Below, one piece after another: positions 20,951 to 62,445 of a stretch of 64,000 nucleotides of DNA (the first letter of the stretch is position 1; each line of letters begins with the position of its first letter). This DNA comes from Naegleria gruberi (Eukaryota). Position numbers and translations under genes: made by a program. Below the pieces are notes generated by a model, which was given only the letters and a program-made list of their open reading frames with translations, did not search any database and was not told where the DNA came from. The stretch lies in NCBI GenBank assembly GCA_000004985.1, contig GG738850.1, one strand, 5' to 3'.

Positions 20951-22258
20951 ATGGCTAGTCATGATGAGGAAGTTTACATTGCTGAATTTTATAGTGGTAT
21001 CGGAGGAACAAGAATGTCTCTTGAAATGATTCAAGCCTTTTTTGAGGCACAAGTAAATGGAAAGAAAATTAAATTTAATTGGATTGAAGCTTTTGATATT
21101 AATGAAAATGCAAATACTCTTTATAATAATTTATTTAATCACAAACCATGTGCAAAGGATATTGTGCATATTCCTATTGGTGATTTTCAAAATCATTATT
21201 TTAAATTATTTAAAAATTCATCATTGGAGCAAGCAAAGAAGAAATTAAAAACTGAACAAACAAGAAAATTAATGTGGACCATGTCTCCTCCTTGTCAACC
21301 ATTTACTTTGAACGGAAATAGAAAAGATAGTGAAGATGATAGGTCTAAGAGTTTTCTCTTCTTGATGGCAGATTTATTTCCTCAAGTTCTACCAGATTAC
21401 ATTTTTGTGGAAAATGTAAAGAATTTTGAAATATCTAAAACAAGACAACATTTAGTGAATCAATTGGAAAATTTTGGATACAAGTATGAAGAATACTTGA
21501 TTTGTCCAACACAATTAGGACTTCCAAATCAGAGAGTTAGATACTATTTAATTGGAAAGAGAGTAGCTAATATTACACCTCCATTAGAAAAAACAGAAGA
21601 GCTTAGAGAAATACCATTACATCTGATAACAGATCCACCAAAAACTATTTTAAGAGATCAGGAGCCTTTACGACCAAAAATTGATTTTGAGAGCTCATAT
21701 GGAAAAGAGAAAATTCTACAATTAGGAGCAAAGTTAATCGACTTGTATGATTTAAATTCTATTTTACTCACACCTGGGGAAGAGAAAAAATACCAAACTG
21801 ATATGATTTATTTGAACGAGAAAAATATAACAAAAATCAAAGGTTACAGATACGACCTAATTTTCAAAGATCCATATGGAAAGAAGAATTTAACACCAAT
21901 CAAATCTGAGTGTAGTTGTATCACAAAATCATATGGTCAAGTTCAATTCCTTAGAGGAACAGGACCTATAGTATTGATTCTTGATGAAAATCAAATGTTA
22001 GATATTGATTCTAATGAAACCATTTATAAGAAAATTGATTTTGAAAATCCAGTAGAAACCATGATGCCACTTGGAAAGCTTCGATTTTTACATCCAATTG
22101 AGGTATCACGACTAATGACATTTGTTCCTTGGATAATGAACAACACAGGCAAACTTACCGTTAAGCAACTTTACAAGTTGATGGGAAATTCTGTTAATCC
22201 AATTACTCTTGCAAACATAATTTATTTACTATTTTCAAGTGATTCATTTTTGGCTTAA
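20951..22258 (+). CDS. TRDMT1: DNA (cytosine-5)-methyltransferase-like tRNA methyltransferase, Dnmt2/TRDMT1
   Basis: This is a 435-aa ORF with these motifs: motif I EFYSGIGG, motif IV PPCQPFT, motif VI ENVKNF, motif VIII QRVRYY, and a Dnmt2-specific target-recognition CxTKSY...GTG (SECSCITKSYGQVQFLRGTG). Motif X is GNSVN. Lysine-rich insertions make it longer than a typical Dnmt2. Confidence 0.85.
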   Translation: MASHDEEVYIAEFYSGIGGTRMSLEMIQAFFEAQVNGKKIKFNWIEAFDINENANTLYNNLFNHKPCAKDIVHIPIGDFQNHYFKLFKNSSLEQAKKKLKTEQTRKLMWTMSPPCQPFTLNGNRKDSEDDRSKSFLFLMADLFPQVLPDYIFVENVKNFEISKTRQHLVNQLENFGYKYEEYLICPTQLGLPNQRVRYYLIGKRVANITPPLEKTEELREIPLHLITDPPKTILRDQEPLRPKIDFESSYGKEKILQLGAKLIDLYDLNSILLTPGEEKKYQTDMIYLNEKNITKIKGYRYDLIFKDPYGKKNLTPIKSECSCITKSYGQVQFLRGTGPIVLILDENQMLDIDSNETIYKKIDFENPVETMMPLGKLRFLHPIEVSRLMTFVPWIMNNTGKLTVKQLYKLMGNSVNPITLANIIYLLFSSDSFLA

Positions 22259-24232
22259 TTTGTCTACAATCCTCTTAAGGTTATTTTTTGCGCTTGTGTA
22301 GCAATTGTCAATCTTGATTGCAGTTTCGAAATCAAATCTAGCTGCCTCCAGGTCTTCCATACATGTTTCGTATATACGACCCCTCATATTGAAAAGCACA
22401 GCGTTGGAAGGATCATTTGCTATTGCTTGATTAATGATGCTTAATCCTGTTTTGTGGTCTTTTAATTTGTAGCAATACAAGTTAGCACGATTTAAAAATA
22501 CATGGACTGATTTCGAATCATACTTATCAGTGATTAAACTATAATCCTTAAGTGCTTGTTGATAGTTTTGCATATCCTCGTAACATAATGCTCTTATGAA
22601 ATGAGTAAGTGCTTTAAACGGTCTACAACTGTCATCCATATCATGTATTATTGAATCTAGGTCACTGAGGCAATTTTCATAATCCTTTTTGATTATTCTA
22701 TTGTACAGAACTCTTATCAACATAGATTCATCTTCAGTAGTAGTGTTAATATTTGCTTCTACCATATTTTCAATGAGTTTTTCGGTTATAGAGTGTGATT
22801 GCAGTTCCAAAACATCTATAATGGTCAAATATATTTTGAAGGAATCGTTAAGACTTCTAGAATTCCTTATTTCCTTTGATTTAGAGACAAGAATGTCCAA
22901 TATGTGAGTGTGAGATTTCTGAGCTGGTTTTTCTTTCTTGACATCTTTGAAAATTTTCTCTATTCTTTGTAAATTATCCTTCGCTTCCAGATTCTTTGGA
23001 TCAAGCTTTAATGCAAGAATGTAATCAAGCCTAGCTGATTCAAAATTTTTAAACCCAACTTCGAAAACCTTTCCTCTTCCAACCAAACAAGGTACTGAGC
23101 TGGCTTGTATTTTCAATGCTCGATTGTAATCTGCTAAAGCCATATCAAATTCACTAATCTTGAAGAATAATTGAGCTCTACTTAAAAATGCTGCAAAGTA
23201 ATCTGGAGATAGAATGATTGCATGATTGTAATCTCTCAATGCGCTTTCCCAGTCATCTAATGAATTCTTGTACAAATCTGCTCTGCATTTATAAAGCATT
23301 GCAATGTTAGGATGATTTTCAATACCAATATTTAAATCGTTGAGAGCTGCCTCTACTTGGTCTGATCTTTGTAATATTAATGATCTGGAAACATATGCTT
23401 TGTAATAGTCGTAATCCTCAATTATTTTTCCGAAATCCATTTTGGCTTCAGAATATCTTTTAAGATCAACGTAGCAACATCCCCTTATATAGTGTGTTAA
23501 ACATACAAGTAAATTGTGTTCACTTGTTTGGATTTCCAACAAATTAGTGCAGAAAGAAATGGTCTTGTGATTGTCCATTAAAATAGATCTGGAAAATATA
23601 GCACAACAAAATAAGGCAAGGGTGTAGTTTGGACTTTCTTTAACAGAATCCAAAAAGGAATACATATTATGTTCTTTGGAGTCCAGAATTGATATTTTCC
23701 TCTTCATTTCATTGTATATTTGTTCAGCTTTTGAGCATTCTGTTTGTACAATTATTTCATTTGATAAAAAGAGCAAATAATCCACAGTCATTATTTCATC
23801 AGATGATGAGCTTGGTTTGGAATCATCATTTCTATCAACTCTTTTGGGAGTGTACTGTCTTGACCTTGCTGTTTCCTTAACTTCATCAGCAGCATCCTTC
23901 TTGATTTTTTCAATCAGTGCATCCTTCTTCTTTTCAACCATCTTCTTAGCTTCATTGATGATATTCTCGATTAGATTTTTAACAAGCCTTTCCTGTTCCT
24001 CAAAAATCTGTTTTACATTTGTATCCTTACTAAGTTCTGCTTGCTTTTCCAATTCCTCGATCATTTCATCAATATTATATTTAGGTTGCTCCTCTTCCAT
24101 CAAAACTTCTGGTTGATCACTTGCTCTCAACTCCTCTAGCTTTTTCGTATATTCCTGTTCGGTAAGAAATCCCTCCCTTAGTAGTGTGTTGAGAAGTATT
24201 TCCGAACTGGGACCTTCAGTATTGTTGTTCAT
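22244..24232 (-). CDS. Tetratricopeptide (TPR) repeat protein, about 662 aa
   Basis: It carries multiple TPR-like 34-aa units, for example ...MLYKCRADLYKNSLDDWESALRDYNHAIILSPDYFAAFLSRAQLFFKISEFDMALADYNRALKI.... The track start at 24253 is TTG and the first ATG is at 24232. Its 3' end overlaps the Dnmt2 CDS by 15 bp. Confidence 0.65.
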   Translation of the reverse strand: MNNNTEGPSSEILLNTLLREGFLTEQEYTKKLEELRASDQPEVLMEEEQPKYNIDEMIEELEKQAELSKDTNVKQIFEEQERLVKNLIENIINEAKKMVEKKKDALIEKIKKDAADEVKETARSRQYTPKRVDRNDDSKPSSSSDEIMTVDYLLFLSNEIIVQTECSKAEQIYNEMKRKISILDSKEHNMYSFLDSVKESPNYTLALFCCAIFSRSILMDNHKTISFCTNLLEIQTSEHNLLVCLTHYIRGCCYVDLKRYSEAKMDFGKIIEDYDYYKAYVSRSLILQRSDQVEAALNDLNIGIENHPNIAMLYKCRADLYKNSLDDWESALRDYNHAIILSPDYFAAFLSRAQLFFKISEFDMALADYNRALKIQASSVPCLVGRGKVFEVGFKNFESARLDYILALKLDPKNLEAKDNLQRIEKIFKDVKKEKPAQKSHTHILDILVSKSKEIRNSRSLNDSFKIYLTIIDVLELQSHSITEKLIENMVEANINTTTEDESMLIRVLYNRIIKKDYENCLSDLDSIIHDMDDSCRPFKALTHFIRALCYEDMQNYQQALKDYSLITDKYDSKSVHVFLNRANLYCYKLKDHKTGLSIINQAIANDPSNAVLFNMRGRIYETCMEDLEAARFDFETAIKIDNCYTSAKNNLKRIVDKLSQK

Positions 24233-24420
24233 TTTTTTAAAATCTTTTTTCAAATTAAACGGCTAGTTATCAATAAGGGTTATGGAAAGTTTATTCATTG
24301 ATAAGGAACAAATATCGAATTGTGTTTACACCTTTAATTCTTGCTAAATATCACTCTCAGATGAACAAAATGATGTTTGCCGCCAAAACCCATACAATTT
24401 TTGCGCCAACTTTAAAAAAA

Positions 24421-25380
24421 ATGTCAACAGGGGATATTAAAAACAACGTTGAAAAATTAAGAACGCAATTAAGAAGTATTCATTATAATGGGAGTTTTGA
24501 TGTTGAGGGAATAATAAACGGAAAACCAGAAGTGTTTCTGCCGTTATTGAATTATACACTGCTGCAGTTTAGCAAATCTTTAGCCAAATTCTTTATACAA
24601 AAGGGATATTTATTCCATAATCTTTCCGATTCAAAGTTTATTGAAACTGTTTACCGATTATTAATTAACGAGTTTGCATACAATCCAAGTTTGAGCATTA
24701 TTTACTTCTTATCTAGCGGATTTTCAGAGAGAAAGGTCTTGTTCCTTTGTGATGTAATTCATTACTGTAAAAAAAAGCATAATGAATTGGTAAAGACTAA
24801 AAAGAAGAGCCTCTTTGAAAGAGGAAAGGAAAAGGAAAAAGATCATCCAAAGAAGACTGAGGAATCAAAATCTCAACAGCCAGAAGTACAAAAGAATATT
24901 CCTGATATTGTTAGAGAACCAAAGCATGTTGTTTTGGTCAGAAAAGAACCTGAATATCAACTAGATGTCGATGACTCGAACGTCGATACTACAGTATCTT
25001 CTGCTCTCAATGAGAGTGACATATTTATACGTGCTTTGAATGATCTTTCGCATAGAATGATGGATAGTATTCAAAAGCTTGACGATAAGGTTGACAAGAA
25101 TTTATCCAGTCTTAGAGACAGAGTATTTTTAGTGGAGAGAAGAGTTCAAGCTCTGGAAGAAAGTGCAAAACAGAAAGCTCAAAAGGAAGAAGCACTACAA
25201 CTAAATCCAACATCTCGAATTTCTCGATCGCCTGAAAGGATACCAAACACAAACCACATACCTCAACAATTTTTTACACCTGCAGTGAATCATGGCAGTC
25301 CGCCAATGCCAAAAAGGCAAATCAGCGACACTGAAGATTTTATCAACCAACTAGCTCAAAAACATAAAATAAAATTGTAA
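24421..25380 (+). CDS. CEP44: Centrosomal protein CEP44 homologue
   Basis: The N-terminal 130 aa MSTGDIKNNVEKLRTQLRSIHYNGSFDVEGIINGKPEVFLPLLNYTLLQFSKSLAKFFIQKGYLFHNLSDSKFIETVYRLLINEFAYNPSLSIIYFLSSGFSERKVLFLCDVIHYCKKKHNEL are colinear with the CEP44 N-terminal domain. The track ORF starts earlier at 24298, but homology begins at the ATG at 24421. Confidence 0.7.
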   Translation: MSTGDIKNNVEKLRTQLRSIHYNGSFDVEGIINGKPEVFLPLLNYTLLQFSKSLAKFFIQKGYLFHNLSDSKFIETVYRLLINEFAYNPSLSIIYFLSSGFSERKVLFLCDVIHYCKKKHNELVKTKKKSLFERGKEKEKDHPKKTEESKSQQPEVQKNIPDIVREPKHVVLVRKEPEYQLDVDDSNVDTTVSSALNESDIFIRALNDLSHRMMDSIQKLDDKVDKNLSSLRDRVFLVERRVQALEESAKQKAQKEEALQLNPTSRISRSPERIPNTNHIPQQFFTPAVNHGSPPMPKRQISDTEDFINQLAQKHKIKL

Positions 25381-25381
25381 T

Positions 25382-27956
25382 TTATTGTAAAAACTTTTCA
25401 AGTTGAGATTCTTGTGATTTTTCAGCATCTTCTGCTCTTAACACCTCAATTGAACCCTTACTATCACCAACCAACACAATTGGAACATCTTCAGCGAATA
25501 TTGTGCAATTCAGCTTTCCAGGTTTTGTCTTGGAATATTTTGGTCTAACTGTTGAATAGCTCAAATCCCAAAGCTCCAAATCTCCAACAATGGATGAAGT
25601 AGCAAACATTGTCGAGCAATACTTACTCCAAGCAACATCTGTCACAGAGTAAGAACGTTGATCACTCTTCTCAGAGTATGACTCGATAGTAAATATTGGT
25701 GTTAATGATTCTTGATTCCATATCTTCACTGTCCAGTCAGCACTACAAGAAATAAACATGTCAGGAACGACAGGATTCCATCTCACAGAGTAAACAGGAC
25801 CTGTGTGATCAATGTATGTTTCAAGAGGGTGTTCATTATATGAGCTAGAGCACTTGAAGATAGCACCATCTTCTGTACCAACAAGATAAATCAAATTGTC
25901 AGAAGGTGAGAAATCAATACTCATACCACCCGATTCTCTTGAAATCATGGCATCTCCTCCCATATCTGTTGCTCTTCCTATTCTCTTCAATCTCATTATT
26001 TCTGATGATTCCAAACCTTTCTTAATTGTCCATGAATTTACTCTACCATCTACACCAACCGAGTGCAATTTCTCGCCAACATCCTTTCCTCGATTTACCC
26101 ATTTTAGATCCCAAACTGTACCTGTATGACTCTTAATAGTTTCCATTACTGGCGTATTTTCCTTTCTTCTGATATCGTAAATTGATACAGTACCATCACT
26201 TAAACCAGCTGCCAAAATACTAGGATTAGTGGCAGAGAAATTTACACTGTTAACACCAGCTCCATCTACCTTAAGAATACGTTCTGGGTAGGCTGGATTC
26301 TTAACATTCCAACAGAGAATGACACCATTAGATTGATGTAAATCAGTAACATCTCCAGATCCATAAGCTGCTGCCAGTATGTCATTATTCTGCTTATTCC
26401 ATGTGAGGTTGTTGACATTGTAGTTTTTAACCACATCACAATTATATTCCCAAAGAGTTGTGAGAACTCCTGATGGTTTAGTGTTGACAACATCTTCTTC
26501 AGTATCACTTTCAGCCTTATCTTTTTCTTCATCCTCCCTTTCCTTTTCTTTTTCGTCCTCTCCTTTAGCAACTTCTTCCTCTTCGAAAGTGTCACTTCTT
26601 GGAGTTTCTTGAGAGTCGTTTGGCGATTTTGAGGCAACCTCCTCTTGAACTTCTTTAGTTTCAGATTGTTCTTCAGGAAGTGGTAATAAAGGCACATCTC
26701 TATCATCTGCATTAATGTATCGTTTTTGTCTGTTATGGAATATATTTTGTACAACTGCTCTTGTTATTACAAGTTCTTGGTAGGATGAAACAGATGTCTT
26801 TTCGCTGCCAACTCTTCCACTCTTAACACTGATATCATCAGCTCCATCATCCTCCAAATCTCCTTCTTCCTCGTCTTCCTCATCTTGCTTGTTTGATAGT
26901 GAGGTCATTATTTCCCTTTCTTCCCTTTCTCGTTCTTCTCTTTCTCGAATATCTTTATAATCATCAAATATTTGATAAGCTGAAACTTGAACTTCAACTT
27001 CTTCGTATTCTGTCTTCGAAGTGTTTGTTCTCTTGTTTTTGTAAAACTTTTCCATTGTTTGTACATGTTTATCCATATAATTATCTCTATTATTTTCCTT
27101 ATTTTTCAGCAATTCCTTATAGACCTTGTTTTTTTCTCTAATTTCTTCAATCTTAGGATCGTCAACCTTTACACTCTCATCAAATTTATCAAACAGGAAA
27201 AATGTTTCAGTTTCTGTTAAGGATATAGTAAAATCCACTTCTTGTAACATTTCCAATTGTTTTTCAGTTAATTTTTCCTCGTTGGAACGATCCAAACTTA
27301 TTGAAGGAACGTCACTCTTTTTAATAAAACTATCCACTGCTCCAATATTATCCAAATCTTGAGCTAAACTCAAATCTACAGATCCAGCAGTGCTGAAAGT
27401 GTCATCATTACCCACAGGACCACTGAACACAAATGACTCCTCATCGTCACTCACAACAGATGGACTTGATGAGCCAGCTTGACTAGCCTCTCCTTGAGGA
27501 ATATCTCTTCCGAAACTGTATGAAGAAGCTCTATCAAAATCAGAAATTGATTCACTCTAAAACAATATTAAATACAATTCCATCTTATTAAAAACCTACT
27601 GCTGATGAAGGAGAAATATTTCCCGATTGATATGATCCTGCCATATCTGCTGATGTATTTTGAGAGAATAATGGTGCAGGATTTTTGATTTGTTTTGTTA
27701 CTGGGTCAACAGCATCAAATGAATCCTTAGTTTTTCCTAGCATTGTTTGAAATCTCTTCTTCATTCCTTGAAGAGTAATTGATGATCCAACATTCTTTTT
27801 TCCAAATCCTTTTTTCGAATCGGATTTTCTTGATTTTGATGTTCTCGATGTTGACGACCCTGTATTGAGTTGAGTGGACATTCTACGAGATTCCCTGTTT
27901 GTAGAACTGCCTGCTCTAGAGGACGTTGGTGGATCTTGGAATGGGTTTCTATTCAT
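25382..27956 (-). CDS. DNAI1: Axonemal outer-arm dynein intermediate chain (DNAI1/IC78-like), WD40
   Basis: Gene model is join(complement(25382..27556),complement(27600..27956)). The 43-nt intron has a GTAGGT donor and TTTTAG acceptor, in phase 0. The track ORF's GTG 'start' is internal, and the frame is open upstream exactly to the acceptor. WD-repeat blocks match DNAI1: LCWNVKNPAYPE, IYLVGTEDGAIFKCSSSYNEHPLETYIDHTGPVYSVRWNP and MFISCSADWTVKIWN. The DNAI1 equivalents are MFLVGTEEGKIYKCSKSY and FMSCSSDWTVKIWD. Acidic and charged low-complexity inserts lie in the N-terminal half. Confidence 0.7.
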
Positions 27957-33655: not shown

Positions 33656-35953
33656 ATGTTTAGAATTTCTCCTTCGACTGGAACACCTCCAAGACCAGTT
33701 ATGAATAATCAATTATCATCACAACAACAACACTATTCTAATACTAACAATACTACTCCTAATAATACAACTAATCAAAAGCAACAACTAATGCAACAAG
33801 ATAATCAATTATCATCTCCTACCACTACTCAATATCCATCACCTCCAACTCTTTCAATGTTTACCAATTCAACTACTTCAAGTAGTAGTGACAATGCCAG
33901 TACTAACGACAGTTATATGAGTGATGATAGTTCGAATTTGAGGAGAAGAAGAGACTTTGATGCACTCTCCTCAATGGAAAATACCACACCACAAGGAACA
34001 ATGGAAGAAGAGAATCAAACAGTTTCATTTTCCAATATTTCTGCAGCACAACCAACTAGAAACAAGAAGAGAAAAAAGAATTCCTCACCAAACTTTGAAG
34101 AGATTTCATCCCCAAGTTCTCCTAAAGGACGTGATACAAATAATATTGAGCTTGATGACTCTTTCGAACAAAAGTTTTCTAAAGCAATTTCCAATTTTGG
34201 TGACGATAGTCCTGTACTCAATAATGATTCATGTTTTACCAATAGATATACAGGACCTAAATTTGAATCTACCAATAAGACAATAGCAAGATATGGTGAC
34301 GATAATAGAACATTCATTGTTGGTCTTCTTGGTTATGAATTCAATGAGAGTGAAATTGAAGTAACACCAAGTAATGATTCGACAGGTCTATTGCAACGTT
34401 TGGGAAGAATGTTTAGTAATATATTCTCATCAACCAGTCTCAATCAAACACTTCCATTCAATAATGCTAATGCTGTCACGACCAGTAATTCAACTCTGAG
34501 ACATCATACACTTCAAGAAGATCACACTGTTATCCATTCGAATCCTGCTGTAGAATGTGAGTTGATTTCTCATTGGAGAGAAGTTCCACTCTTGAGAAAT
34601 GTTAAAATCAAACAAATTTCATGTGGTGGTTATCACGTTTTACTTTTAACTGAAGATAATGTTGTATACACATCTGGGTGGAATAAGTATGGTCAATTAG
34701 GTACAAGTAAGAGTGGGTCAAGTAGCAAGATTGTAAAGATTGTAGAGAATGAACAAACTGATTATTGTGAAGTTCAATCCTTCCATAGAATTGAATTCCC
34801 TGAAAAGATTATTTCACTGAATGCCAGTGGTAGACACAGTTTGTTTTTGAGTGAGAGTGGAAGAGTTTATGGAACTGGTTGTAATTTGCATGGAAGAATG
34901 GGATCTGAATTCATTGAACCAGAAGAATTGGGATTGAAGCAATCCCAAGACTTACAACAAGTTACTGGAAATCAAATACTAGAACCAAATATTAATTGTG
35001 GTGTTTTCTCTCCAATTCTTTTGGGAGGAATTTTGAAACAAAAGAGAGCTTACTATGTTGGTAAAGCATTTTGGCACTCTATCATTGCAACCTGTGATGG
35101 AGGAGTTTATGTAATGGGACAAAGTGATGAAGGCAAGCTGGGAATTGGCTCTGTAAAGGCTAATCCAATTGACCAAGATACACATTGTTATGAACCAACA
35201 GAGATTATAGAATTGAGAGGAAGAGAAATCATTGAAGCTGAAGGTGGAGCATGGCACACAATTTTCCTTACAAAGGCCAAGTCAAATGAGCTCAATAATG
35301 ATTTATGGGTGTGTGGAAGTAACTATTGGGGTCAACTAGCTCTTCCACCAATTGGAAATAAGCCCGTAACAAGCTTTTTGGTTCCAGTAATTCATCCATT
35401 CTTTAGTGGAAAAAGAGATCCATCTAAGAATGCAGTTCAAATCAGTGCTGGGTCAAACTTTAACGCAGTTTTGACTGAAGATGGTTCTATTTATTGCTTT
35501 GGTTGTGGAAGTAGTGGTAAAACTGGATTGGGTCATGCCAGAACTGTTAGAACTCCAATTAAGGTCAAATCAATTCCAAAGGATGTTATCAAAATTTCAA
35601 CAGGATCAAATCATTTATCTGTAATTACAAAGAGTGGAGAATTGTATAGTGTTGGATGGAACTTTTACGGACAATGTGGTTATGATTCAGACATTTCCAA
35701 TATTTCGAGAGTCGAAGATACTAAAACTGAACTGTCTCCTTCTTGTGATGATATGGTAGAGAGCTACATTATGCCAAGAATTAGAAGACTCACTGGAGTG
35801 GAGGTGAACTCTGTTGGCAGTGGTGCCTATTTTACAATAATTACAACAAGTTCGACAAGTAATCCAATCATTAGAAAGCAAAAAGAAGCAAAATTCAAGG
35901 GAATACAAGTACGAAGAGGCTTTAATGATATTTCAGTTAGATGTACAAAATAA
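33656..35953 (+). CDS. RCC1-repeat (RLD) protein with a long disordered N/S/T/Q-rich N-terminus, 765 aa
   Basis: The C-terminal half has repeated RCC1 blade signatures: ISCGGYHVLLLTEDNVVYTSGWNKYGQLG, ASGRHSLFLSESGRVYGTGCNLHGRMG, SAGSNFNAVLTEDGSIYCFGCGSSGKTG and STGSNHLSVITKSGELYSVGWNFYGQCG. Confidence 0.7.
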   Translation: MFRISPSTGTPPRPVMNNQLSSQQQHYSNTNNTTPNNTTNQKQQLMQQDNQLSSPTTTQYPSPPTLSMFTNSTTSSSSDNASTNDSYMSDDSSNLRRRRDFDALSSMENTTPQGTMEEENQTVSFSNISAAQPTRNKKRKKNSSPNFEEISSPSSPKGRDTNNIELDDSFEQKFSKAISNFGDDSPVLNNDSCFTNRYTGPKFESTNKTIARYGDDNRTFIVGLLGYEFNESEIEVTPSNDSTGLLQRLGRMFSNIFSSTSLNQTLPFNNANAVTTSNSTLRHHTLQEDHTVIHSNPAVECELISHWREVPLLRNVKIKQISCGGYHVLLLTEDNVVYTSGWNKYGQLGTSKSGSSSKIVKIVENEQTDYCEVQSFHRIEFPEKIISLNASGRHSLFLSESGRVYGTGCNLHGRMGSEFIEPEELGLKQSQDLQQVTGNQILEPNINCGVFSPILLGGILKQKRAYYVGKAFWHSIIATCDGGVYVMGQSDEGKLGIGSVKANPIDQDTHCYEPTEIIELRGREIIEAEGGAWHTIFLTKAKSNELNNDLWVCGSNYWGQLALPPIGNKPVTSFLVPVIHPFFSGKRDPSKNAVQISAGSNFNAVLTEDGSIYCFGCGSSGKTGLGHARTVRTPIKVKSIPKDVIKISTGSNHLSVITKSGELYSVGWNFYGQCGYDSDISNISRVEDTKTELSPSCDDMVESYIMPRIRRLTGVEVNSVGSGAYFTIITTSSTSNPIIRKQKEAKFKGIQVRRGFNDISVRCTK

Positions 35954-35955
35954 AA

Positions 35956-37500
35956 CTAAATAATAATCAAATCAGATAATTGTTTGTGTTGGGTTGTATG
36001 GAGTAACTTTTCAAAGAAATCAAGAATACTACAGCTTAGACCAGTTCTTTTCACATAAATATTTTGACTACTGTTGCATGAATAGACTTGCAAGGAGTAC
36101 TGTTTTAGAGAATCGAATAAAATAGGTTTTGGTATTTCATTAACAATTACTACTCTTCCAATTAATGAGTGTGAGTGTTGGTACATGATTTGGAAATAAT
36201 AGAGTTGATTCTTAGATTGAAGAATTATGGCATCAGAGGTTATATAAACCTGTCTAATGGCAATATTATGTTTGTTGAAGTAATCTAGTTCATAAAAACC
36301 AATTGCTTCTTGTTTAGGTAGCTTTCTACTTCCAATATTTTGAATTGTTGAAAATACCCTTCCCTTATTAGTAATTGCAACAGTGAAATATTGACCACAA
36401 TTCACTTCCTTAATCTTATCAATATTATAATCAAATTCATTCAATGTTACTTTCATCACATCTATAATACAAATATATTCCTTCTTTTTTCCAGTTTGTT
36501 GATAAGTATTATCTCCACACACATACAAATATCCATTCAATGTTAAGAATACAGAATGATAAAGTCCACATTTGATATCTACCACTTGATCCTTACTTGA
36601 TTTTGGTAATATCTTAATTTCTGTCAATACATTCGAATAGTTATTGAGAACACTCCATTGATTAGATTCAGAACTTCCAAATCCGAGAACCTTCCTCTTT
36701 CCAGTGCTCCTTTCTCTCACCAGAATGAGAACATGTCCACATCCTGCTGCAATTTTCTCAGCATGAAACAAACTCTTATCAATATCCAAAACTGATCCAA
36801 TCAGAGCTCCATTCTTGTTCTTTACCTTTTTAGTTGCCAATGATTTACAATCTGAAAAAACTCTACCATCATGAGTTAAATAGACACTTTCATCCTCAAA
36901 ACATGCAATTGAAACAATAGTATTGAATGATTTTCCGTCGACCATTTCATATCCTTTCTGAATAAATTCCTCCAAATCATTCAATCTTTTAAAATGTGGC
37001 ATTCGATCAGACTTTGAATATTTCCACATAAATAACATGAATGGAATTTCAGTAGCAGAATTCATATTGGCACTACTATTAGAACCATTGAATGGTTGAC
37101 CATTCTTGTCCACCATTACCACTAAAATTCGTGAACTGCCAGCAATCATTGAAACGTTACATGGCATTGATTGACCTTTTTTCACAATACTCAACTCAAC
37201 TCTATCCAATACATGATATAATTCTTTACCATCATATCTATTTGTTGAAAGTATTTCCTCCGATGGCACACTTGCAAATTTCGTTGGGGTGAAAATTAAT
37301 TGTTCCATTTGATCGAAATTCTTTGCAAGCTTTTTTCTATTAGAATTTGGTGCATTTTTACTGAAAATGTAATTAGTAAAGAGGGAACTGTCGTGTTGTT
37401 GCTGTAGTTGGTCTTGAATCATTTTTTTTTTGTAATTTACATAAATTTCGAAATTGAACTCATTTTGATATTCAATGCTTTGAATATGAATAATTTTCAT
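35956..37500 (-). CDS. RCC1-like beta-propeller protein, 514 aa
   Basis: Degenerate RCC1-like blades are present: AAGCGHVLILVRERSTGKRKVLGFGSSESNQW, KCGLYHSVFLTLNGYLYVCGDNTYQQTG and NCGQYFTVAITNKGRVFS. Its stop lies 2 bp from the stop of the preceding RCC1 gene, which is convergent. Confidence 0.5.
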   Translation of the reverse strand: MKIIHIQSIEYQNEFNFEIYVNYKKKMIQDQLQQQHDSSLFTNYIFSKNAPNSNRKKLAKNFDQMEQLIFTPTKFASVPSEEILSTNRYDGKELYHVLDRVELSIVKKGQSMPCNVSMIAGSSRILVVMVDKNGQPFNGSNSSANMNSATEIPFMLFMWKYSKSDRMPHFKRLNDLEEFIQKGYEMVDGKSFNTIVSIACFEDESVYLTHDGRVFSDCKSLATKKVKNKNGALIGSVLDIDKSLFHAEKIAAGCGHVLILVRERSTGKRKVLGFGSSESNQWSVLNNYSNVLTEIKILPKSSKDQVVDIKCGLYHSVFLTLNGYLYVCGDNTYQQTGKKKEYICIIDVMKVTLNEFDYNIDKIKEVNCGQYFTVAITNKGRVFSTIQNIGSRKLPKQEAIGFYELDYFNKHNIAIRQVYITSDAIILQSKNQLYYFQIMYQHSHSLIGRVVIVNEIPKPILFDSLKQYSLQVYSCNSSQNIYVKRTGLSCSILDFFEKLLHTTQHKQLSDLIII

Positions 37501-37553: not shown

Positions 37554-38312
37554 TTACAATGCAGCAGAATATAAATTAATAATTGGTGGTCTAGTCAACT
37601 CAAATCTTCCAAGAATATTTTCAAATCCATATGTAATACTCCATTGAAATTTACCAGATAATTGTTGATTCTTCTTTTCAATAGCAAATGAAATAGCTCT
37701 CTTACATTCCCTATGAATTTCAAAATTATTCCTTCTTCTAATAAAAATCAACCATGTGAAAAAAACCACAGGTGGAATCCACAACACATACATGTAGAAT
37801 AAAATTAATCCCTGACCAGCAGCTGATGCATTGAATGTAGCTCCCAATCTAATCACCAAGAATAGTCCAAATAAGAGGAAAATTACAATGGAAATCAACA
37901 TGGCACAACTGGCATAAAATATTTCAACATCTCCTTCTTTGAGTTGTGTATGAAATTTGTTTAAAATTGTGGAAATTTGTTCGGTGAAGGAGTGATAATC
38001 TTCTTGGGACATTTGGTTGTTTAATTCTTCAGGGTAGGAAGAGGTAAATTGTTTAAAGGAATAATCATATGGAATGGAAATGATGCAATTGGAAATATTC
38101 GAAACTAGATTGGAAGTGTTGGTAATTTCAATCACGTGTTCTACTTCATCATCGTGGTATGATGATGGTTGTTGTTGTTGGTCGGTTGTGGATTCTTCCG
38201 TGTAGAGCATTTTTTTATGAGGATTTTTTATGGAGTTTCGAATAAAATCAAACGTGTGAAATTCGAAAGAGGAATGAATTACATGCTCTATTGTGAACAT
38301 GTTAAAATACAT
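37554..38312 (-). CDS. Hypothetical membrane protein with two adjacent TM helices
   Basis: The hydrophobic hairpin is MLISIVIFLLFGLFLVIRL...LILFYMYVLWIPPVVFFTWLIFI. The start is ambiguous: ATG at 38312, or MLYTEE... at 38210. It lies in the same frame as the upstream SBP-like gene, separated by a single TAA. Confidence 0.4.
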   Translation of the reverse strand: MYFNMFTIEHVIHSSFEFHTFDFIRNSIKNPHKKMLYTEESTTDQQQQPSSYHDDEVEHVIEITNTSNLVSNISNCIISIPYDYSFKQFTSSYPEELNNQMSQEDYHSFTEQISTILNKFHTQLKEGDVEIFYASCAMLISIVIFLLFGLFLVIRLGATFNASAAGQGLILFYMYVLWIPPVVFFTWLIFIRRRNNFEIHRECKRAISFAIEKKNQQLSGKFQWSITYGFENILGRFELTRPPIINLYSAAL

Positions 38313-38330
38313 TAATTTATTGAAAAACAA

Positions 38331-39481
38331 TTAGAAAATGAATGAAATAATCAAACTAATCAAAATAGCCAACATTCCAACGTTATTCGAAACAACTTGA
38401 TATGAAACTCCAGCACTTGTAGAATTAAATGCAGTAAAAGTAGCAAATCCATATGAATCTCCAAACAATGAAACAGAACATCCCTTACAACTATTACCAT
38501 TCAAACTCATCCAATTTCTATATTGAATAGCATCTCCAATAATAGCATGAACTGATTGATCCAAAACTCCTTGATAAGATGAAGCAGCACTTGAGAATTG
38601 AACATAGGTAGCTTTTGGAAGATAGGTTTTAACGTAGGTTGAGTAAACAGTTCCTTCATAGGCACCAACAATCATATCAGGTGAATTGAATTGATTAATG
38701 TCTGTAATGGAAATACTTTGATTTCTGAGTGATCTTAAGAAACCCTATTAATTTGATGAAATTGAAACGTATTGGAATTTTGATATGTGAATATTTGTGA
38801 AAAAAGTTATTGGAATTATAGTCATGAAATTTGTGTTAATAATGAATTGGTTTTTTTGGTGGAATGAACTTACATTGGATCCAGTACCATAATTACATTG
38901 GAAGTGAGCAACTGTAGTTCTTTCAGGAAGAGGTGTAGCCTACAAGTTTCGAATATAAATTTTCACACAATTTCCAATAGAAACTTACATTACTTGTAAT
39001 AATATCACATTCTCCATCATCAACCAACTTTCTCAATGTATTAAAATACCCCAAACTACTTGTATTATACTGAGTAAAAGAGGCAGCATAATTTGTTGAA
39101 TATTTTGCATTAATTTTCTTAATGATATATTGACCAACTGTTCTCTTGATGGTCAACCATGGATCTTGAGTACCTAATTCAAAGCATAATCTGATATTGC
39201 TTCTAGATGCGAAAGGATTGGTGGATGGCCAAACTGGTTTAGAGGTAGAACACTATATGATTCGAATAATTATATGAGAAATGATAATTAGAAAGTAGTA
39301 AACATACAATAGGAACTGGGAAAAGCATCAAGTTGGAATATGTTTGTTGGAAATCATTATCAGAAACAACTTCTTGCACTGCAGCATCAAAAGCTGCTGT
39401 CATTTGGCTGGTGATGACTTGTGCCTTCACGCCAACTGTCAAACACACAATAAACAATAACAGGATAACAATTTGTTTCAT
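38331..39481 (-). CDS. Secreted, probably GPI-anchored, bacterial-type solute-binding-protein family 3 (SBP_bac_3 / iGluR ligand-binding-like) protein, about 305 aa
   Basis: Gene model is join(complement(38331..38744),complement(38874..38939),complement(38989..39252),complement(39308..39481)). Three phase-0 introns of 55, 49 and 129 nt have GTATGT, GTAAGT and GTAAGT donors. Each acceptor is immediately preceded by an in-frame stop. The signal peptide is MKQIVILLLFIVCLTVGVKAQ. SBP_3 signatures are CDIITSN-ATPLPERTTVAHFQCNY (compare DIIIAGMTITPERKK..FS.PY) and MIVGAYEGTVYSTYVKTYLPKATYVQFSSAASSYQGVLDQSVHAIIGDAIQY...GFATF. The C-terminus is SNNVGMLAILISLIISFIF, an omega-site-like stretch plus a hydrophobic tail. 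Confidence 0.6.
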
Positions 39482-40628
39482 TTTCTCTAGTAGAAGTAAT
39501 AGGTGGATGATGTTTTGTTAATTTTTTCTTGTTGATTTTGGTACGAAATGCAAAATGCTTTTTAACTCGCACACTTACGCATTTATCCAAATTTAGAAGG
39601 CGATTCTTTGTTGAGTGAATGCTAAATATTTTCAATAATATCTAAATTCGATAAGAATACACTAATGAGAAAAAGTGAATTGTGTCTCTTCTCCAAAATG
39701 CACCTTTTTATCTCTTTTATCTCTGATGCCAAATGTCAATAAGATAGCAAACACATCTATAAAGAATATGGCAAGATTTTGATGGCAAGACGAATCAGAA
39801 GAGAGAAAGCTCTACAAATTCCATTCCTCCAGTAATAGTTGTGAAATATGGATGGTTGATTTCCGTGAAGTATGTCAGATGCCAATTTCAAAGTTGTTTC
39901 GGGGGAAGTATTGAAAAGGGTATGAGAAATGTGTCCTGTTAGCATTTAAATATTTGGAAAGTAAATTGTGAACGAAGGATTCGTCAATTGCATGCTTTGT
40001 ATTACACACTGTCAATTGTTTCTAATATTTCTTGAAACTATACTGTAAACTAAATCATATATGAAGAAATTCCATACTTCTTACTCTTCTTGTGTTTTCT
40101 AACTGGCTAAATGTCGTGGCTATAATCCCATCTTGTTATCCAAATGAAAGCTAACACGAAATGGATAAATGAAAAAATGTAAAATGGGTTATACAATGCT
40201 AATAAACATTTTTAGTATCCACTTCTGCTAAAAGAAATTATCAAACTGCAATAGATCTTATGGCACGTTGTTGCAAACTTATGAGAATGCAGTACTGATT
40301 CTCACCAAGAACCCCTTAAAATTGTCCAGGAACATTAATCATCCGATGCTTTGGTCTGGACTACTCAGTGATCCCTCACTGAGGTTCACCTTAATAACAA
40401 TAGAGCACTCAGTTGTAAACACACAGTGTAATACTTGTTCAACAAGTGAAAATTTCCTTTTGAATTTGGCCGACATTTATCAATATAATTACTCAGAAGC
40501 ACTTGCCACTGAACCTACTGTTAGAGTTGTTGGAAGTGGTGATCCTGTAGTATTAGACAATTCTTGAATGTCACTAATGGAAATACAATCAATGGTATTT
40601 ATTGGACTTCAAGTCCATCAAATCCAGG

Positions 40629-59919: not shown

Positions 59920-60755
59920 ATGTTAGCACAAGACAATGATATAAAGAACAAAGTTAGAAGATTTGTTAGAAAGTATCACATCAAACAACCTCTTCAAAAA
60001 CGAATCTTTGATAAGCACAAATTCGAACCATTAACAGAATCTCCCTTAATAGCATCTGAAGAAAATACAGAGTTTCTTTCCCATCAGAACTCTGCCTACT
60101 CGGGTTTATCCCAATACCAAATACACAAAACTGCAGAATTGAAAAAAGGTCCTTGTGGAGTTGGACTAGCAAACTTTCAATTCTAGTTGAAATGGAAAGT
60201 TTAGGAGATGATGCTTACTTTACCTTTGATTCCACCACGCATTCAATGATAGGAATTGCAGATGGAGTTGGAGGTTGGAATAGGAATGGTTCCACAGGTA
60301 TTGCAGCACTAGTTAGCAATAGAATAATGTCGGAATGCTTAAAATGTTGTGAGAATGGGGAACGTGATCCTAGAAATGTAATGAAACAATCATTTGAGAA
60401 TATTGTGAAAGATAACTTGAGTAAAGGTAGTTCAACAGTTTGCATTGCATCCATTGATAAGATGGCTAACAAGCTCAGTGTTTGTAATTTTGGAGATTCT
60501 CAATATGATATCATTCTATTATTTACAGATGGAGTGTGTGATAATCTCTTTCAATCTGAAATTCTTGAAATTTGTACTGGACTTGATACATCCTATGAAA
60601 TTGCTTGTTCAATTGTGAAAAAATCAAAAGAAAAAACGAGAACACCATCCACTGACTTTGCAGAAATCTATCCCACACCATTTTCAAAAAGCAGAAATTT
60701 GAAATATACTGCAAAACCAGATGATATCACTTGTGTATGTCAAATAATTGAATAA
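59920..60755 (+). CDS. PPTC7: PP2C-family phosphatase, PPTC7 (TA-PP2C)-like, with an internal frame discontinuity
   Basis: Both track ORFs, 59920..60186 and 60153..60755, match PPTC7. Matching blocks are ...ELKK..., ESLGDDAYF (PPTC7 GACYGDDACF), IGIADGVGGW (LGVADGVGGW), GSSTVCIASID, NFGDS, DIILLFTDGVCDN (DIILTATDGLFDN) and KPDDITCV (KPDDITVL). The two halves are in different frames around 60147-60190. Either a 38-nt intron 60149..60186 with an atypical GTCCTT donor joins them, or there is an indel/frameshift. A segment of roughly 55 aa between the GDS and TDG motifs present in PPTC7 is absent. Confidence 0.55.
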
Positions 60756-60854
60756 CTCAATAAAACCTTAAAACAACAATCCGATATATGGATAACATCA
60801 ATTATCAAATATCTGAATCAGTTGTTTAGATATTTTAAATATTATTTAAAAAAA

Positions 60855-62445
60855 ATGTTTAGAGAACAAGAAGAGGAGGAAATTTATCAACATCAACGAA
60901 ATAATCTTGGTCGACATGGAAACAATGAAGATGATGGTACTCTGACAGAGTATCATCATCGTGATAAATCTTCATCAATTCTACAATTCCTGAGGAATAA
61001 CAAGATTTATATTGCAATCTTTATTGTAGCCTTTATTATTTGTATTGGATTATTAATTGGATTAATTGTTTATAATATTGTTAGTAAACCAAATATTGTA
61101 GATCATGTTTCGGATAGGAGAGTCTTGATGATCTCTATTGATGGATTCCGACCTGATTATTTGGACATGTTTAAGGATGATTGTAAGAATTTAACTCGTG
61201 TATTTATGGATGGTGTTAGAGCCAAGACAATGAAACCAATATTTCCATCAAAAACATTTCCAAATCACTATACGATTGTTACTGGACTTTATGCTGAATC
61301 TCATGGAATAGTTTCAAATTCGTAAGTTTGTTAAATTGATTATTCAACCTGGAAAATGTTAGTTTTTATGATCCAAATTTCAATGCCAAGTTTAGTATGG
61401 GATCTGATGAATCCATCAAATCTAGATGGTGGTTAGGAGAACCTATTTGGGTAACTGCTGAAAAACAAGGAATGGTTGCAGGAAGTTTCTTCTGGCCTGG
61501 CTCAGATGTGGAAATTCAAGGAAGATATCCAACCTATTACAAGAAATATGATGGAGATGTTGATTATGAGACAAGAGTCAAAACTGTATTTGAATGGTTA
61601 GATTCAGATAAACCACCACAAATTGTATTGACCTATTTCAGTGCTGTGGATACTGCAGGTCACAAGTAAGTTTTATTTTTCATGTTTACAATATGGATAC
61701 AAATATAATAATAATTAAATAACTATAGATATGGACCTATTTATTCTGAAGAATTGAGGGCAGCTGTAAAAGAAGTGGATAATTCTATAGGACTTGTTCT
61801 TTCACAATTGGAAAAGAGAAATTTGACTGATAAAGTAGATTTGATTATTGTGAGTGATCATGGTATGGCTTACACTCCAGAATCAAAGATTGTGAGAATG
61901 ACAGATATATTAGGAAGAAATGTTTTGGTTGGAGATGAAATTTTCAGTATGAATGATGGTCCATTCTTTGATTTGTATATTAAGGACAAATCTAAAGTTG
62001 AACCCCTATTTAATGAATTAGCGAATTCAATTCAAAATAATAGTACCTTCTCAACTGCCATTCAAGGTGTTTATTTGAAGAATAATATGCCAGATAGATT
62101 CCATTTTGTAAATTCTGACAGAATTCCAGATATTACCATACTTGCCAAACCTGAATACTCGATTTTAAGATATTCTACTAGTACCTTGTACGGTAAGTGC
62201 TAATAATTTAGTATTATTGATCTTAATGCGATTTAAAAGGAAATGGAAATCATGGATGGGATAATGAATCAGATTTAATGGGTAGCTTATTTATTGCCAG
62301 AGGAAAGCACTTTAAACAAGGGTTTACATCTGAGGAATCTGTTAGAAATTTGGATGTTTATTCATTACTTTGTAAATTATTGAATTTAACACCAGCTCCA
62401 AATAACGGTACTGCTGATAATTTTTCGTCCTTCTTGAAACTCTAA
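60855..62445 (+). CDS. Ectonucleotide pyrophosphatase/phosphodiesterase (ENPP) family, type II signal-anchor, about 479 aa
   Basis: Gene model is join(60855..61321,61363..61665,61729..62192,62240..62445). Three GTAAGT introns of 41, 63 and 47 nt are in phases 2, 2 and 1. Together they fuse four track ORFs. The catalytic-domain signatures are ISIDGFRPDY, KTFPNHYTIVTGLYAESHGIVSN, WW.GEPIWVTAEKQG and FFWPGSDVEIQG. The others are SDHGMAY, GNHGWDNESDLMGSLFIARG and LLNLTPAPNNGT, nearly identical to ENPP1 MCDLLNLTPAPNNGT. The N-terminal TM is IYIAIFIVAFIICIGLLIGLIVYNIV. The first ATG is at 60855. Confidence 0.8.

What the first reader, a model, noticed from the sequence alone, without database searches (positions are those of the whole stretch)
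37554..39481. Intron-containing, GPI-like bacterial-type solute-binding (SBP_bac_3) ectodomain gene, followed in the same frame by a 2-TM protein after a single TAA
SBP_bac_3 is the periplasmic amino-acid-binding fold that eukaryotes normally use only inside iGluR or family-C GPCR receptors. Here it stands alone, with a signal peptide and a hydrophobic C-terminal tail. It has three canonical short spliceosomal introns, so it is a bona fide nuclear gene rather than bacterial contamination. That makes it either an ancient horizontal acquisition that has been domesticated, or a free extracellular ligand-sensing module. The next ORF (37554..38330) continues in the same reading frame after one TAA codon and encodes a 2-TM hairpin protein. 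This raises the possibility of stop-codon readthrough, a sequencing error, or a split receptor made of a ligand-binding ectodomain plus a membrane partner.
Basis: partly seen in the sequence, partly recalled or inferred. Interest (0 to 1): 0.65.

Follow-up and report, generated by a model that had tools for sequence, protein, structure and literature searches.

The report
Naegleria surface amino-acid-binding-fold protein gene
This is a real, intron-containing Naegleria gruberi gene for a secreted, probably lipid-anchored protein with the bacterial amino-acid-binding fold, one of a small uncharacterised amoeba family, and the membrane-protein ORF after its stop codon is a separate neighbouring gene.

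Summary
The sequence facts hold. A four-exon minus-strand gene (39481-38331; GT-AG introns of 55, 49 and 129 nt) encodes 305 aa with a signal peptide and a terminal hydrophobic tail. It aligns without gaps at any exon junction to 17 full-length homologues.

The window is Naegleria gruberi: the downstream 218-aa ORF is 100% identical to an annotated N. gruberi protein.

The protein alone fails Pfam SBP_bac_3 (E=0.17). The family assignment is still sound:
- A family profile hits solved bacterial amino-acid-binding proteins at E=2e-20.
- A paralogue passes Pfam's threshold.

Residues that align with the ligand-contacting Arg, Gly-Thr and Asp are conserved, as are six cysteines and a GPI-like C-terminus. 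All named homologues come from Naegleria and Willaertia.

The readthrough or split-receptor idea is not supported:
- The 120-nt spacer has intron-like composition.
- All homologues end at the same point.
- Two N. lovaniensis paralogue loci lack the 2-TM gene.
- A second single-stop in-frame ORF pair occurs in the same window.

Verdict: a new member of a database-known but unstudied family. It is most likely a surface amino-acid-type ligand binder. Interest is modest.

The parts
39308..39481 (-). Exon 1 (aa 1-58). It holds the signal peptide (aa 1-20, 39481-39422) and the family-specific N-terminal helix (TAAFDAAVQEVV...).
39253..39307 (-). Intron 1: 55 nt, GTATGT...ATAG, 22% GC, phase 0.
   Evidence: There is no gap at junction 58/59 in alignment A1.
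38989..39252 (-). Exon 2 (aa 59-146). It forms the first part of lobe I and carries conserved C59, C81 and C140, plus the GYF and CD(I/V) motifs.
38940..38988 (-). Intron 2: 49 nt, GTAAGT...GTAG, 27% GC, phase 0.
38874..38939 (-). Exon 3 (aa 147-168, 66 nt). It carries the invariant R153 (38921-38919), which aligns with the alpha-carboxylate-binding Arg of bacterial amino-acid-binding proteins, and conserved C161.
38745..38873 (-). Intron 3: 129 nt, GTAAGT...ATAG, 24% GC, phase 0. Its last codons are in-frame TAA TAG.
38331..38744 (-). Exon 4 (aa 169-305 plus stop TAA 38333-38331). It encodes lobe II with G199-T200, the hinge-strand D239 (38534-38532), and C254/C257. The GPI-like signal follows: S278-A279-G280, a 9-aa spacer, then the 16-aa hydrophobic end V290-F305 (38417-38334).
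38211..38330 (-). Intergenic spacer of 120 nt between the TAA and the next gene's ATG. It is 25% GC, carries AATAAA at 38321, and is stop-free in frame by chance.
37554..38210 (-). Separate downstream gene of 218 aa (stop TAA 37556-37554). It has an acidic N-terminus, a weak Erf4/GOLGA7-like motif (aa 43-89) and two hydrophobic segments (about aa 93-125 and 133-158). It is identical to an annotated N. gruberi predicted protein.

Best explanation
The locus holds two independent Naegleria gruberi genes.

The upstream gene is a four-exon nuclear gene. It encodes one member of a Naegleria and Willaertia (Heterolobosea) family of proteins of about 280-340 aa, built on the type II periplasmic-binding-protein fold (SBP_bac_3-like, amino-acid-binding type).

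Inferred life of the protein:
- The signal peptide (aa 1-20) takes it into the ER.
- Six conserved cysteines form up to three disulfides, and up to four N-x-S/T sequons are glycosylated.
- The C-terminal signal (omega about S278-A-G, a 9-aa spacer, a 16-aa hydrophobic end with no cytosolic residues) is exchanged for a GPI anchor.
- The two-lobed domain then sits on the outer face of the plasma membrane.

Inferred binding mechanism: the lobes close around a small ligand. R153 in lobe I, G199-T200 in lobe II and D239 are expected to hold its alpha-carboxylate and alpha-ammonium groups, as the aligned residues do in bacterial amino-acid-binding proteins and iGluR ligand-binding domains. The ligand is therefore most likely an amino acid or a close derivative. 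Paralogues probably differ in side-chain specificity.

Having no transmembrane or cytosolic part, the protein must act in one of two ways. It could be a surface sensor that signals through an unidentified membrane partner, as proposed for the GPI-anchored EhVFT of Entamoeba. Or it could be a ligand-capturing or scavenging protein.

What is shown: the gene model, the family, the fold and the residue conservation. What is inferred: GPI anchoring, the ligand class and the signalling role.

The downstream 2-TM ORF is an unrelated neighbouring gene. Its shared reading frame is a coincidence in a very compact genome.
For: Gene model:
- GT-AG introns, with an intron GC of 22-27% against 34% in the exons.
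- Collinear alignment with 17 homologues at 22-41% identity, with no indel at any junction.

Host: 100% identity of the neighbouring gene to an N. gruberi protein on a 707,703-nt contig.

Family: exon 4 alone finds 68 proteins, 17 of them below 1e-10. The named ones are all from N. lovaniensis, N. fowleri, N. gruberi or Willaertia magna, and some are called 'Solute-binding protein family 3/N-terminal domain-containing protein' by UniRef.

Fold:
- The protein alone against PDB gives AncCDT-1 at E=4e-6.
- The family profile against PDB gives 2e-20 and 71 hits, nearly all bacterial amino-acid binders.
- 10 of 22 members hit PF00497 at E<=0.01.
- Paralogue P0005 scores 32.0 bits, above the 26.4 cut-off.

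Binding residues in the 18-sequence alignment: R153 18/18; D239 15 D plus 2 E; G199 15/18; T/S200 17/18; six Cys 17/18 each. Their register with the 'TPERKK' and 'D' positions of solved binders is seen.

GPI-like tails occur throughout the family.

Independence of the 2-TM gene.
Against: - This protein's own Pfam score is insignificant.
- The structure was predicted for a 41%-identical homologue, not for the window protein itself.
- No GPI predictor was available. A single-pass tail anchor without a cytosolic tail cannot be excluded.
- No transcript, proteomic or ligand data were available.
- The position five residues before the Arg (T148) varies in the family (T/N/I/Q/S), so some members may bind something other than a standard amino acid.
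- For the analogous EhVFT, no ligand could be found by ITC (PMC12965686).
Confidence: 0.72

Rival explanations
1. Readthrough, fusion or split receptor. The TAA at 38333-38331 is read through, or is a sequencing error, so that the binding ectodomain is joined to the 2-TM protein. Alternatively the two products form a dedicated ligand-binding and membrane-partner pair.
For: The two ORFs share a frame with only one stop between them. A fused product would be topologically possible: ectodomain, hydrophobic segment, cytosolic part, hairpin.
Against: - All 17+ homologues from four species end within a few residues of the same point, after the hydrophobic tail.
- The spacer is 25% GC, like the introns and unlike the 33-34% of the CDS. 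It translates to an F-rich peptide typical of AT-rich non-coding DNA and carries AATAAA 10 nt after the stop.
- A stop-free in-frame spacer is expected in about 1.3% of tandem gene pairs, and a second such pair exists in this window.
- The 2-TM protein is annotated on its own from ATG 38210.
- It has no homologue near the paralogues in loci L001 and L002.
Confidence: 0.03
2. Bacterial contamination or a very recent horizontal transfer of an ABC-transporter binding protein.
For: The best sequence and structure matches outside the family are bacterial solute-binding proteins.
Against: - The gene has three spliceosomal introns, and its composition matches its neighbours.
- It is embedded between N. 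gruberi genes.
- Paralogues with introns at different positions exist in N. lovaniensis.
- Identity to bacterial proteins is only about 13-19%.
- No close relative was found in 185,579 prokaryotic species genomes, although that pattern-based scan is insensitive.
Confidence: 0.01
3. The fold is retained but the protein is not an amino-acid binder. It could be an enzyme derived from a binding protein, such as a cyclohexadienyl-dehydratase-like enzyme. Or it could be a structural, adhesive or variable surface-coat protein.
For: The top PDB matches include the cyclohexadienyl dehydratase lineage. The family is multi-copy, sits in tandem arrays and diverges fast, at 22-41% identity. The pocket position five residues before the Arg is variable.
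Against: The best match is AncCDT-1, which its PDB entry describes as an ancestral amino acid-binding protein, a precursor of cyclohexadienyl dehydratase. The Arg, Gly-Thr/Ser and Asp that align with ligand main-chain contacts are conserved across the family. That is not expected for a pure coat protein.
Confidence: 0.12
4. The protein is as in the best explanation, but anchored by its C-terminal hydrophobic segment as a single-pass membrane protein, or released as a soluble secreted protein, rather than by GPI.
For: No GPI predictor or experiment was available. PfVFT1, a stand-alone VFT protein of Plasmodium, has a signal peptide but no detectable anchor (PMC13199436).
Against: The protein ends in the hydrophobic stretch with no charged cytosolic residues. 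That stretch is only 16 residues long and is preceded by a polar spacer and a small-residue S-A-G triplet. The same layout recurs in nearly all homologues.
Confidence: 0.12

Closest known systems
Bacterial polar amino-acid ABC-transporter substrate-binding proteins (Pfam SBP_bac_3, type II PBP fold; examples GlnBP/GlnH, LAOBP/HisJ, ArtJ, GlnPQ SBDs, and the reconstructed AncCDT-1 and AncQR)
   Different: This is a eukaryotic nuclear gene with introns. It has an extra N-terminal helical extension of about 40 aa, six conserved cysteines and N-glycosylation sequons. The tether is a C-terminal GPI-like signal, not an N-terminal lipobox. No SBP-dependent ABC importer partner is known or seen nearby. 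Identity is only about 13-19%.
EhVFT of Entamoeba histolytica (GPI-anchored stand-alone Venus-flytrap receptor; PMC12965686)
   Same: It is also an amoeba surface protein made of a signal peptide, a stand-alone periplasmic-binding-protein-type bilobed domain and a GPI signal, with no transmembrane or cytosolic part. An amino-acid-binding motif is retained, and a bacterial origin has been suggested. It is the best functional analogue: knockdown affects motility and phagocytosis.
   Different: EhVFT belongs to the type I (ANF_receptor / LIVBP-like) class, not type II SBP_bac_3. It is a single gene in a different supergroup (Amoebozoa versus Heterolobosea). This is convergence of architecture, not family membership.
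PfVFT1 (Plasmodium falciparum PF3D7_0606800; PDB 5jkq)
   Different: Identity is 11%. It has no predicted membrane anchor and is thought not to be GPI-anchored (PMC13199436). Its function and ligand are unknown. It was not listed among the 60 best of the 71 profile hits.
Ligand-binding domain (S1S2) of ionotropic glutamate receptors, including prokaryotic GluR0
   Different: No ion-channel domain is inserted between the lobes, and there is no PF10613 or PF00060 hit. The sequence is much closer to ABC-type binders than to iGluR domains.

Membership tests
SBP_bac_3 (PF00497) / type II amino-acid-binding PBP superfamily | The protein's own score reaches Pfam's gathering threshold (26.4 bits) | tested here: not met
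   The score is 12.1 bits, E=0.17, covering only aa 128-172. TIGR01096 gives E=0.0033, far below its cut-off. Paralogue P0005 does pass, at 32.0 bits. 10 of 22 family members hit at E<=0.01.
SBP_bac_3 (PF00497) / type II amino-acid-binding PBP superfamily | Significant sequence similarity to proteins of proven SBP_bac_3 structure | tested here: met
   phmmer of the protein alone finds AncCDT-1 at E=4.4e-6 over aa 135-240. The family profile gives E=2e-20 and 71 PDB sequences, nearly all amino-acid-binding SBPs.
SBP_bac_3 (PF00497) / type II amino-acid-binding PBP superfamily | Two alpha/beta lobes joined by a two-strand hinge (type II topology) | tested here: met
SBP_bac_3 (PF00497) / type II amino-acid-binding PBP superfamily | Conserved residues that hold the ligand's alpha-carboxylate (Arg) and alpha-ammonium (Asp/Glu, Gly-Ser/Thr) | tested here: met
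   R153 is invariant, D239 is D or E in 17/18, G199 is 15/18 and T/S200 is 17/18. They are in register with solved binders. The roles of the aligned residues come from established knowledge of LAOBP/HisJ R77 and D161, GlnBP R75 and D157, and GluA2 R485 and E705.
SBP_bac_3 (PF00497) / type II amino-acid-binding PBP superfamily | Works with a cognate ABC permease, or a chemoreceptor or sensor kinase | not tested
   No such partner was looked for genome-wide. None was noticed among the ORFs of at least 130 aa in the window (a subset scanned with Pfam). The W. magna model P0043 carries ABC exporter fragments at its N-terminus, but this looks like a merged gene model.
Ionotropic glutamate receptor ligand-binding domain | Pore-forming transmembrane domain (PF00060) inserted between S1 and S2; PF10613 match | tested here: not met
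   There is no PF10613 or PF00060 hit at E<=1. The only hydrophobic segments are the signal peptide and the C-terminal tail.
GPI-anchored surface proteins | Cleavable N-terminal signal peptide | tested here: met
   The N-terminus reads MKQIVILLLFIVCLTVGVKA|Q, with a hydropathy peak over aa 1-26 and V-K-A before the predicted cut. This rests on rules and inspection only; no SignalP run was possible.
GPI-anchored surface proteins | C-terminal signal: small omega/omega+2 residues, a polar spacer of 8-12 aa, and a hydrophobic end of 12-20 aa with no cytosolic tail | tested here: inconclusive
   S278-A279-G280, a 9-aa spacer and a 16-aa uncharged hydrophobic end are present. The same layout occurs in nearly all homologues. 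No dedicated predictor (NetGPI, PredGPI, big-PI) was available.
GPI-anchored surface proteins | Experimental lipid anchor (PI-PLC release, mature C-terminus) | not testable with these tools
   This needs wet-lab work.
Programmed stop-codon readthrough or gene fusion | The extension is conserved in homologues and looks like coding sequence | tested here: not met
   Homologues end at the aligned stop. The spacer has 25% GC, like the introns. No 2-TM homologue lies next to the paralogues in L001 and L002. The in-frame state is expected by chance and occurs twice in this window.
Erf4 / GOLGA7 (PF10256), for the downstream 2-TM gene | Pfam match above the gathering threshold (29.3 bits) | tested here: not met
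   The score is 18.9 bits, E=0.0016, over aa 43-89 against profile positions 1-51 of 116. There is no PDB sequence hit. The single-sequence AF2 model is too poor to use, at pLDDT 55. This is a lead only.

The most novel reading that the evidence does not exclude
Naegleria and its relatives may carry a repertoire of GPI-anchored amino-acid sensors. On this reading the family descends from a bacterial ABC-transporter binding protein taken up before Naegleria and Willaertia diverged. The proteins would detect prey- or host-derived amino acids at the cell surface and signal through an unknown transmembrane co-receptor. That would be a second, independent case, beside the type I EhVFT of Entamoeba, of a free binding-protein module serving as a eukaryotic receptor without fusion to a channel or a 7TM domain.
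Probability: 0.25. Interest if true: 0.6.

Novelty: new member of a known kind. Interest (0 to 1): 0.35.

Why it matters
Stand-alone binding-protein modules on eukaryotic cell surfaces are rare and poorly understood. They bear on how iGluR-type and class C-type receptors arose from bacterial binding proteins. This family is present in the human pathogen N. fowleri as well as in N. gruberi. If it proves to be a set of surface amino-acid sensors, it would offer a tractable entry into how these amoebae sense food or host tissue, and possibly new surface antigens. As it stands, the gene is one more copy of an uncharacterised family, some of whose members are already labelled by automatic annotation. 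The more exciting readthrough or split-receptor idea does not hold.

Tried and rejected
- The word-indexed search with the spliced protein returned nothing. With the family profile it returned only one metagenomic member, P0052, even though N. lovaniensis members were in the query alignment. That index evidently does not expose this family, so its silence is not evidence of absence.
I used exon 4 alone for the search and the closest full-length homologue for the structure.
- Exact look-ups of the window proteins found no contig. The exact 305-aa model is not in the 15-billion collection. So I cannot say whether N. gruberi's annotation contains this gene under another model.
- afdb50 was unavailable.
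- The alignment was too divergent for a pattern scan of prokaryotic genomes. The single-protein scan found no relative.
- PMC5563136 (the PfVFT1 structure paper) is not held.
- Literature searches for Naegleria with solute-binding, periplasmic-binding, Venus flytrap or GPI terms found no description of this family.

Matches judged to be chance:
- Weak Pfam hits to Metallophos_C (E=0.005) and DUF6705.
- Long bacterial proteins among the exon-4 hits (P0031, P0035, P0045 and others). They contain many copies of a repeat built around 'ADLNGDGKPD(I/L)VVAN...NTVSVLLNTT', which I read as FG-GAP/VCBS-type. They match only a short 'DLN..V.V' stretch and are unrelated.

Other negatives:
- No paralogue of either gene exists elsewhere in the window.
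- The single-sequence AF2 model of the 2-TM protein was too poor for a fold search.
Full report
**Observation.** On the minus strand of 37554-39481 there are two consecutive open reading frames.

The upstream one is interrupted. Exons 39481-39308, 39252-38989, 38939-38874 and 38744-38331 join into a 918-nt CDS of 305 codons plus TAA at 38333-38331. The introns are 55, 49 and 129 nt. Each begins GTATGT or GTAAGT, ends YAG and lies in phase 0. Exons are 34% GC and introns 22-27%.

The product has a hydrophobic N-terminus with a V-K-A|Q cleavage-type motif. Its C-terminus ends in 16 uncharged hydrophobic residues, preceded by a 9-residue polar spacer and the small-residue triplet S278-A279-G280.

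The next ORF (38330-37554) is indeed in the same frame immediately after the TAA and has two strong hydrophobic segments.

**Host.** The window is AT-rich (about 32% GC) and extremely compact. It has short introns and genes for F-box, RCC1-repeat and Rce1-like proteins, among others.

The 218-aa protein read from ATG 38210 is 100% identical over its full length to 'predicted protein [Naegleria gruberi]' on a 707,703-nt contig. The window is therefore N. gruberi nuclear DNA.

**Is the gene model right?** Exon 4 alone (137 aa) was searched with phmmer against 1.84 billion representative proteins. It found 68 hits, 17 of them below 1e-10. Many are 280-340 aa long and match through their C-terminal third.

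Seventeen full-length homologues align with the spliced 305-aa product at 22-41% identity over the whole length. There is no insertion or deletion at any of the three exon junctions. The 22-aa exon 3 carries the only invariant arginine and a conserved cysteine.

The homologues also end where this protein ends. The TAA is therefore the authentic stop, not an error.

Pfam SBP_bac_3 scores 12.1 bits (E=0.17, cut-off 26.4), and PF10613 is not hit. NCBIfam TIGR01096 gives only E=0.0033. The assignment is nevertheless correct at family level:

- The protein alone matches the solved amino-acid binder AncCDT-1 at E=4.4e-6 over aa 135-240.
- A profile of the 18-sequence alignment matches AncCDT-1 at 2e-20, and 71 PDB sequences in all. 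Almost all are bacterial polar-amino-acid-binding proteins. iGluR domains trail far behind (GluR0 2e-5, GluD2 9e-4).
- Ten of 22 family members hit PF00497 at E<=0.01. The N. gruberi paralogue P0005 passes the gathering threshold at 32.0 bits.

The spliced protein was not accepted by the structure tool. I therefore modelled P0004, the closest full-length homologue (41% identical), with a 22-sequence alignment.

- The model has pLDDT 88.3 and pTM 0.74.
- Foldseek against the PDB returns bacterial amino-acid SBPs with probability 1.0, E down to 9e-14 and about 210-220 aligned columns.

The model shows a family-specific helical N-terminal extension, a disordered stretch just before the C-terminal hydrophobic helix, and the complete two-lobe core.

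**Conserved features.** In the 18-sequence alignment the following positions are conserved:

| Position | Conservation |
|---|---|
| R153 | invariant |
| D239 | D in 15, E in 2 |
| G199 | 15/18 |
| T/S200 | 17/18 |
| C59, C81, C140, C161, C254, C257 | 17/18 each |

In the HMMER alignments, R153 falls on the Arg of the 'T-x-T-P-E-R-K-K' motif, and D239 on the Asp of the second hinge strand of solved binders.

From established knowledge of LAOBP/HisJ (R77, D161), GlnBP (R75, D157) and GluA2 (R485, E705), these residues hold the alpha-carboxylate and alpha-ammonium of the bound amino acid. The position five residues before the Arg varies between paralogues (T/N/I/Q/S). That fits differing specificities.

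Every full-length homologue, and the exon-level fragments too, ends in a Ser/Thr/small-residue stretch followed by a terminal hydrophobic run without a cytosolic tail. This is the layout of a GPI-attachment signal. No dedicated predictor was available, so GPI anchoring remains an inference.

**Distribution and origin.** All homologues that carry a source name come from four species:

- N. lovaniensis: at least five looked up, plus an unlisted tandem copy.
- N. fowleri: at least three.
- N. gruberi: at least four besides this gene.
- Willaertia magna: at least six.

The rest are unnamed metagenomic fragments. UniRef already labels several of them 'Solute-binding protein family 3/N-terminal domain-containing protein'.

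In N. lovaniensis, P0004 has two introns at positions different from the three here. P0006 sits in tandem with another paralogue. These are clearly evolving eukaryotic genes.

A pattern-based scan of 185,579 prokaryotic species genomes found no close relative. The family is much nearer to bacterial ABC-type binders than to iGluR domains. That is compatible with an old bacterial origin predating the Naegleria-Willaertia split.

I could not run a proper phylogeny or a profile search of other eukaryotes, so vertical inheritance with loss elsewhere is not excluded. I found no paper describing the family.

**The 2-TM ORF.** The stretch between the TAA and the first ATG (38210) is 120 nt.

- It is 25% GC and translates to an F-rich peptide.
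- It contains AATAAA 10 nt after the stop.
- Shuffles of it are stop-free in frame 4% of the time. With the 1/3 chance of a matching frame, this gives about 1.3% per tandem pair.
- The same window contains a second pair of ORFs of at least 100 codons separated by a single in-frame TAA, at 60060-61322.
- Intergenic distances here are tiny anyway. There are 53 nt between this gene's stop and the next ATG, and convergent genes abut or overlap.

The 2-TM protein is annotated independently in N. gruberi. It shows only a sub-threshold resemblance to the Erf4/GOLGA7 N-terminal motif (E=0.0016). It has no homologue next to the paralogues in the two N. lovaniensis loci examined. Readthrough, sequencing error and a dedicated split receptor are therefore all unsupported.

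**Mechanism proposed.**

- Shown: a spliced nuclear gene; membership of a family found so far only in Naegleria and Willaertia among named sources; the type II binding-protein fold; conservation of the residues that grip an amino-acid main chain; conserved cysteines; and a GPI-type C-terminus.
- Inferred: ER entry, disulfide formation, glycosylation at up to four sequons (N121, N146, N176, N275), GPI attachment near S278, display on the cell surface, and closure of the lobes around an amino acid or close derivative.

The protein has no membrane-spanning or cytosolic part. It would have to signal through an unknown partner or act in ligand capture.

The nearest functional precedent is EhVFT, a GPI-anchored stand-alone Venus-flytrap protein of Entamoeba whose knockdown impairs motility and phagocytosis (PMC12965686). 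EhVFT belongs to the other (type I) class of the fold, so this is analogy, not membership. PfVFT1 of Plasmodium is a second stand-alone eukaryotic example, without a known anchor or ligand (PMC13199436).

Class C GPCRs use the type I ANF_receptor fold rather than SBP_bac_3 (my own knowledge). Stand-alone PBP-fold or SBP_bac_3 proteins are already recorded in eukaryotes (PMC12965686, PMC13199436, PMC11291939).

**Verdict.** This is a real gene, correctly delimited and correctly assigned to the bacterial-type amino-acid-binding fold. It is one more member of an uncharacterised amoeba family that databases already label automatically. The readthrough or split-receptor idea is rejected. Interest is modest (0.35). 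The main value is as a lead to a possible family of surface amino-acid sensors in Naegleria, including the pathogen N. fowleri.

Noticed in passing
window 4855-4973 (-): A complete 5S rRNA gene (Rfam RF00001, 96.4 bits, E=1e-19) lies among the protein-coding genes. No tRNA genes were found in the window.
   Followed up: no
window 60060-61322 (+): This is a second pair of long ORFs (231 and 189 codons, stop to stop) separated by a single in-frame TAA. From their sequences alone they look like two unrelated genes: the second has a hydrophobic segment followed by what I read as a phosphodiesterase-like domain. I used this pair only as a background example for the in-frame coincidence.
   Followed up: partly
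window 22244-22258; 25380-25382; 35953-35956: Convergent genes abut or overlap at their 3' ends. ORFs 20951-22258(+) and 22244-24253(-) overlap by 15 nt. ORFs 24298-25380(+) and 25382-27454(-) are 1 nt apart. ORFs 33656-35953(+) and 35956-37500(-) are 2 nt apart. This implies overlapping 3' UTRs.
   Followed up: no
window 39482-40628: About 1.1 kb upstream of the SBP-like gene has no ORF with a Pfam match; the two longest ORFs, of 99 and 62 aa, gave nothing. That is unusually long for this compact window. It could hold the promoter, an unrecognised spliced gene or a non-coding RNA.
   Followed up: partly
L002 1860-5293 (N. lovaniensis PYSW02000035.1): Just upstream of the tandem SBP-like paralogues lie two genes. 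One has OrfB_IS605 (weak) and Cas12f1-like_TNB domains; I read it as a TnpB/Fanzor-type gene. The other has DDE_Tnp_4 (and a faint DDE_Tnp_1), transposase-family domains. Mobile elements may contribute to the family's duplication or relocation.
   Followed up: no
P0043 (Willaertia magna KAL9652493.1) and P0005 (N. gruberi XP_002676195.1): P0043 joins fragments of an ABC-transporter membrane domain and the start of its ATPase domain to an SBP-like protein that begins with what looks like its own signal peptide. P0005 contains one and a half SBP-like copies in tandem. Both look like merged or truncated gene models rather than real fusions.
   Followed up: partly
L001 6001-7161 (N. lovaniensis PYSW02000060.1): The closest full-length homologue, P0004, has two introns (after about aa 101 and 207). 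Neither coincides with any of the three introns of the window gene (after aa 58, 146 and 168). This indicates intron gain or loss within the family.
   Followed up: partly
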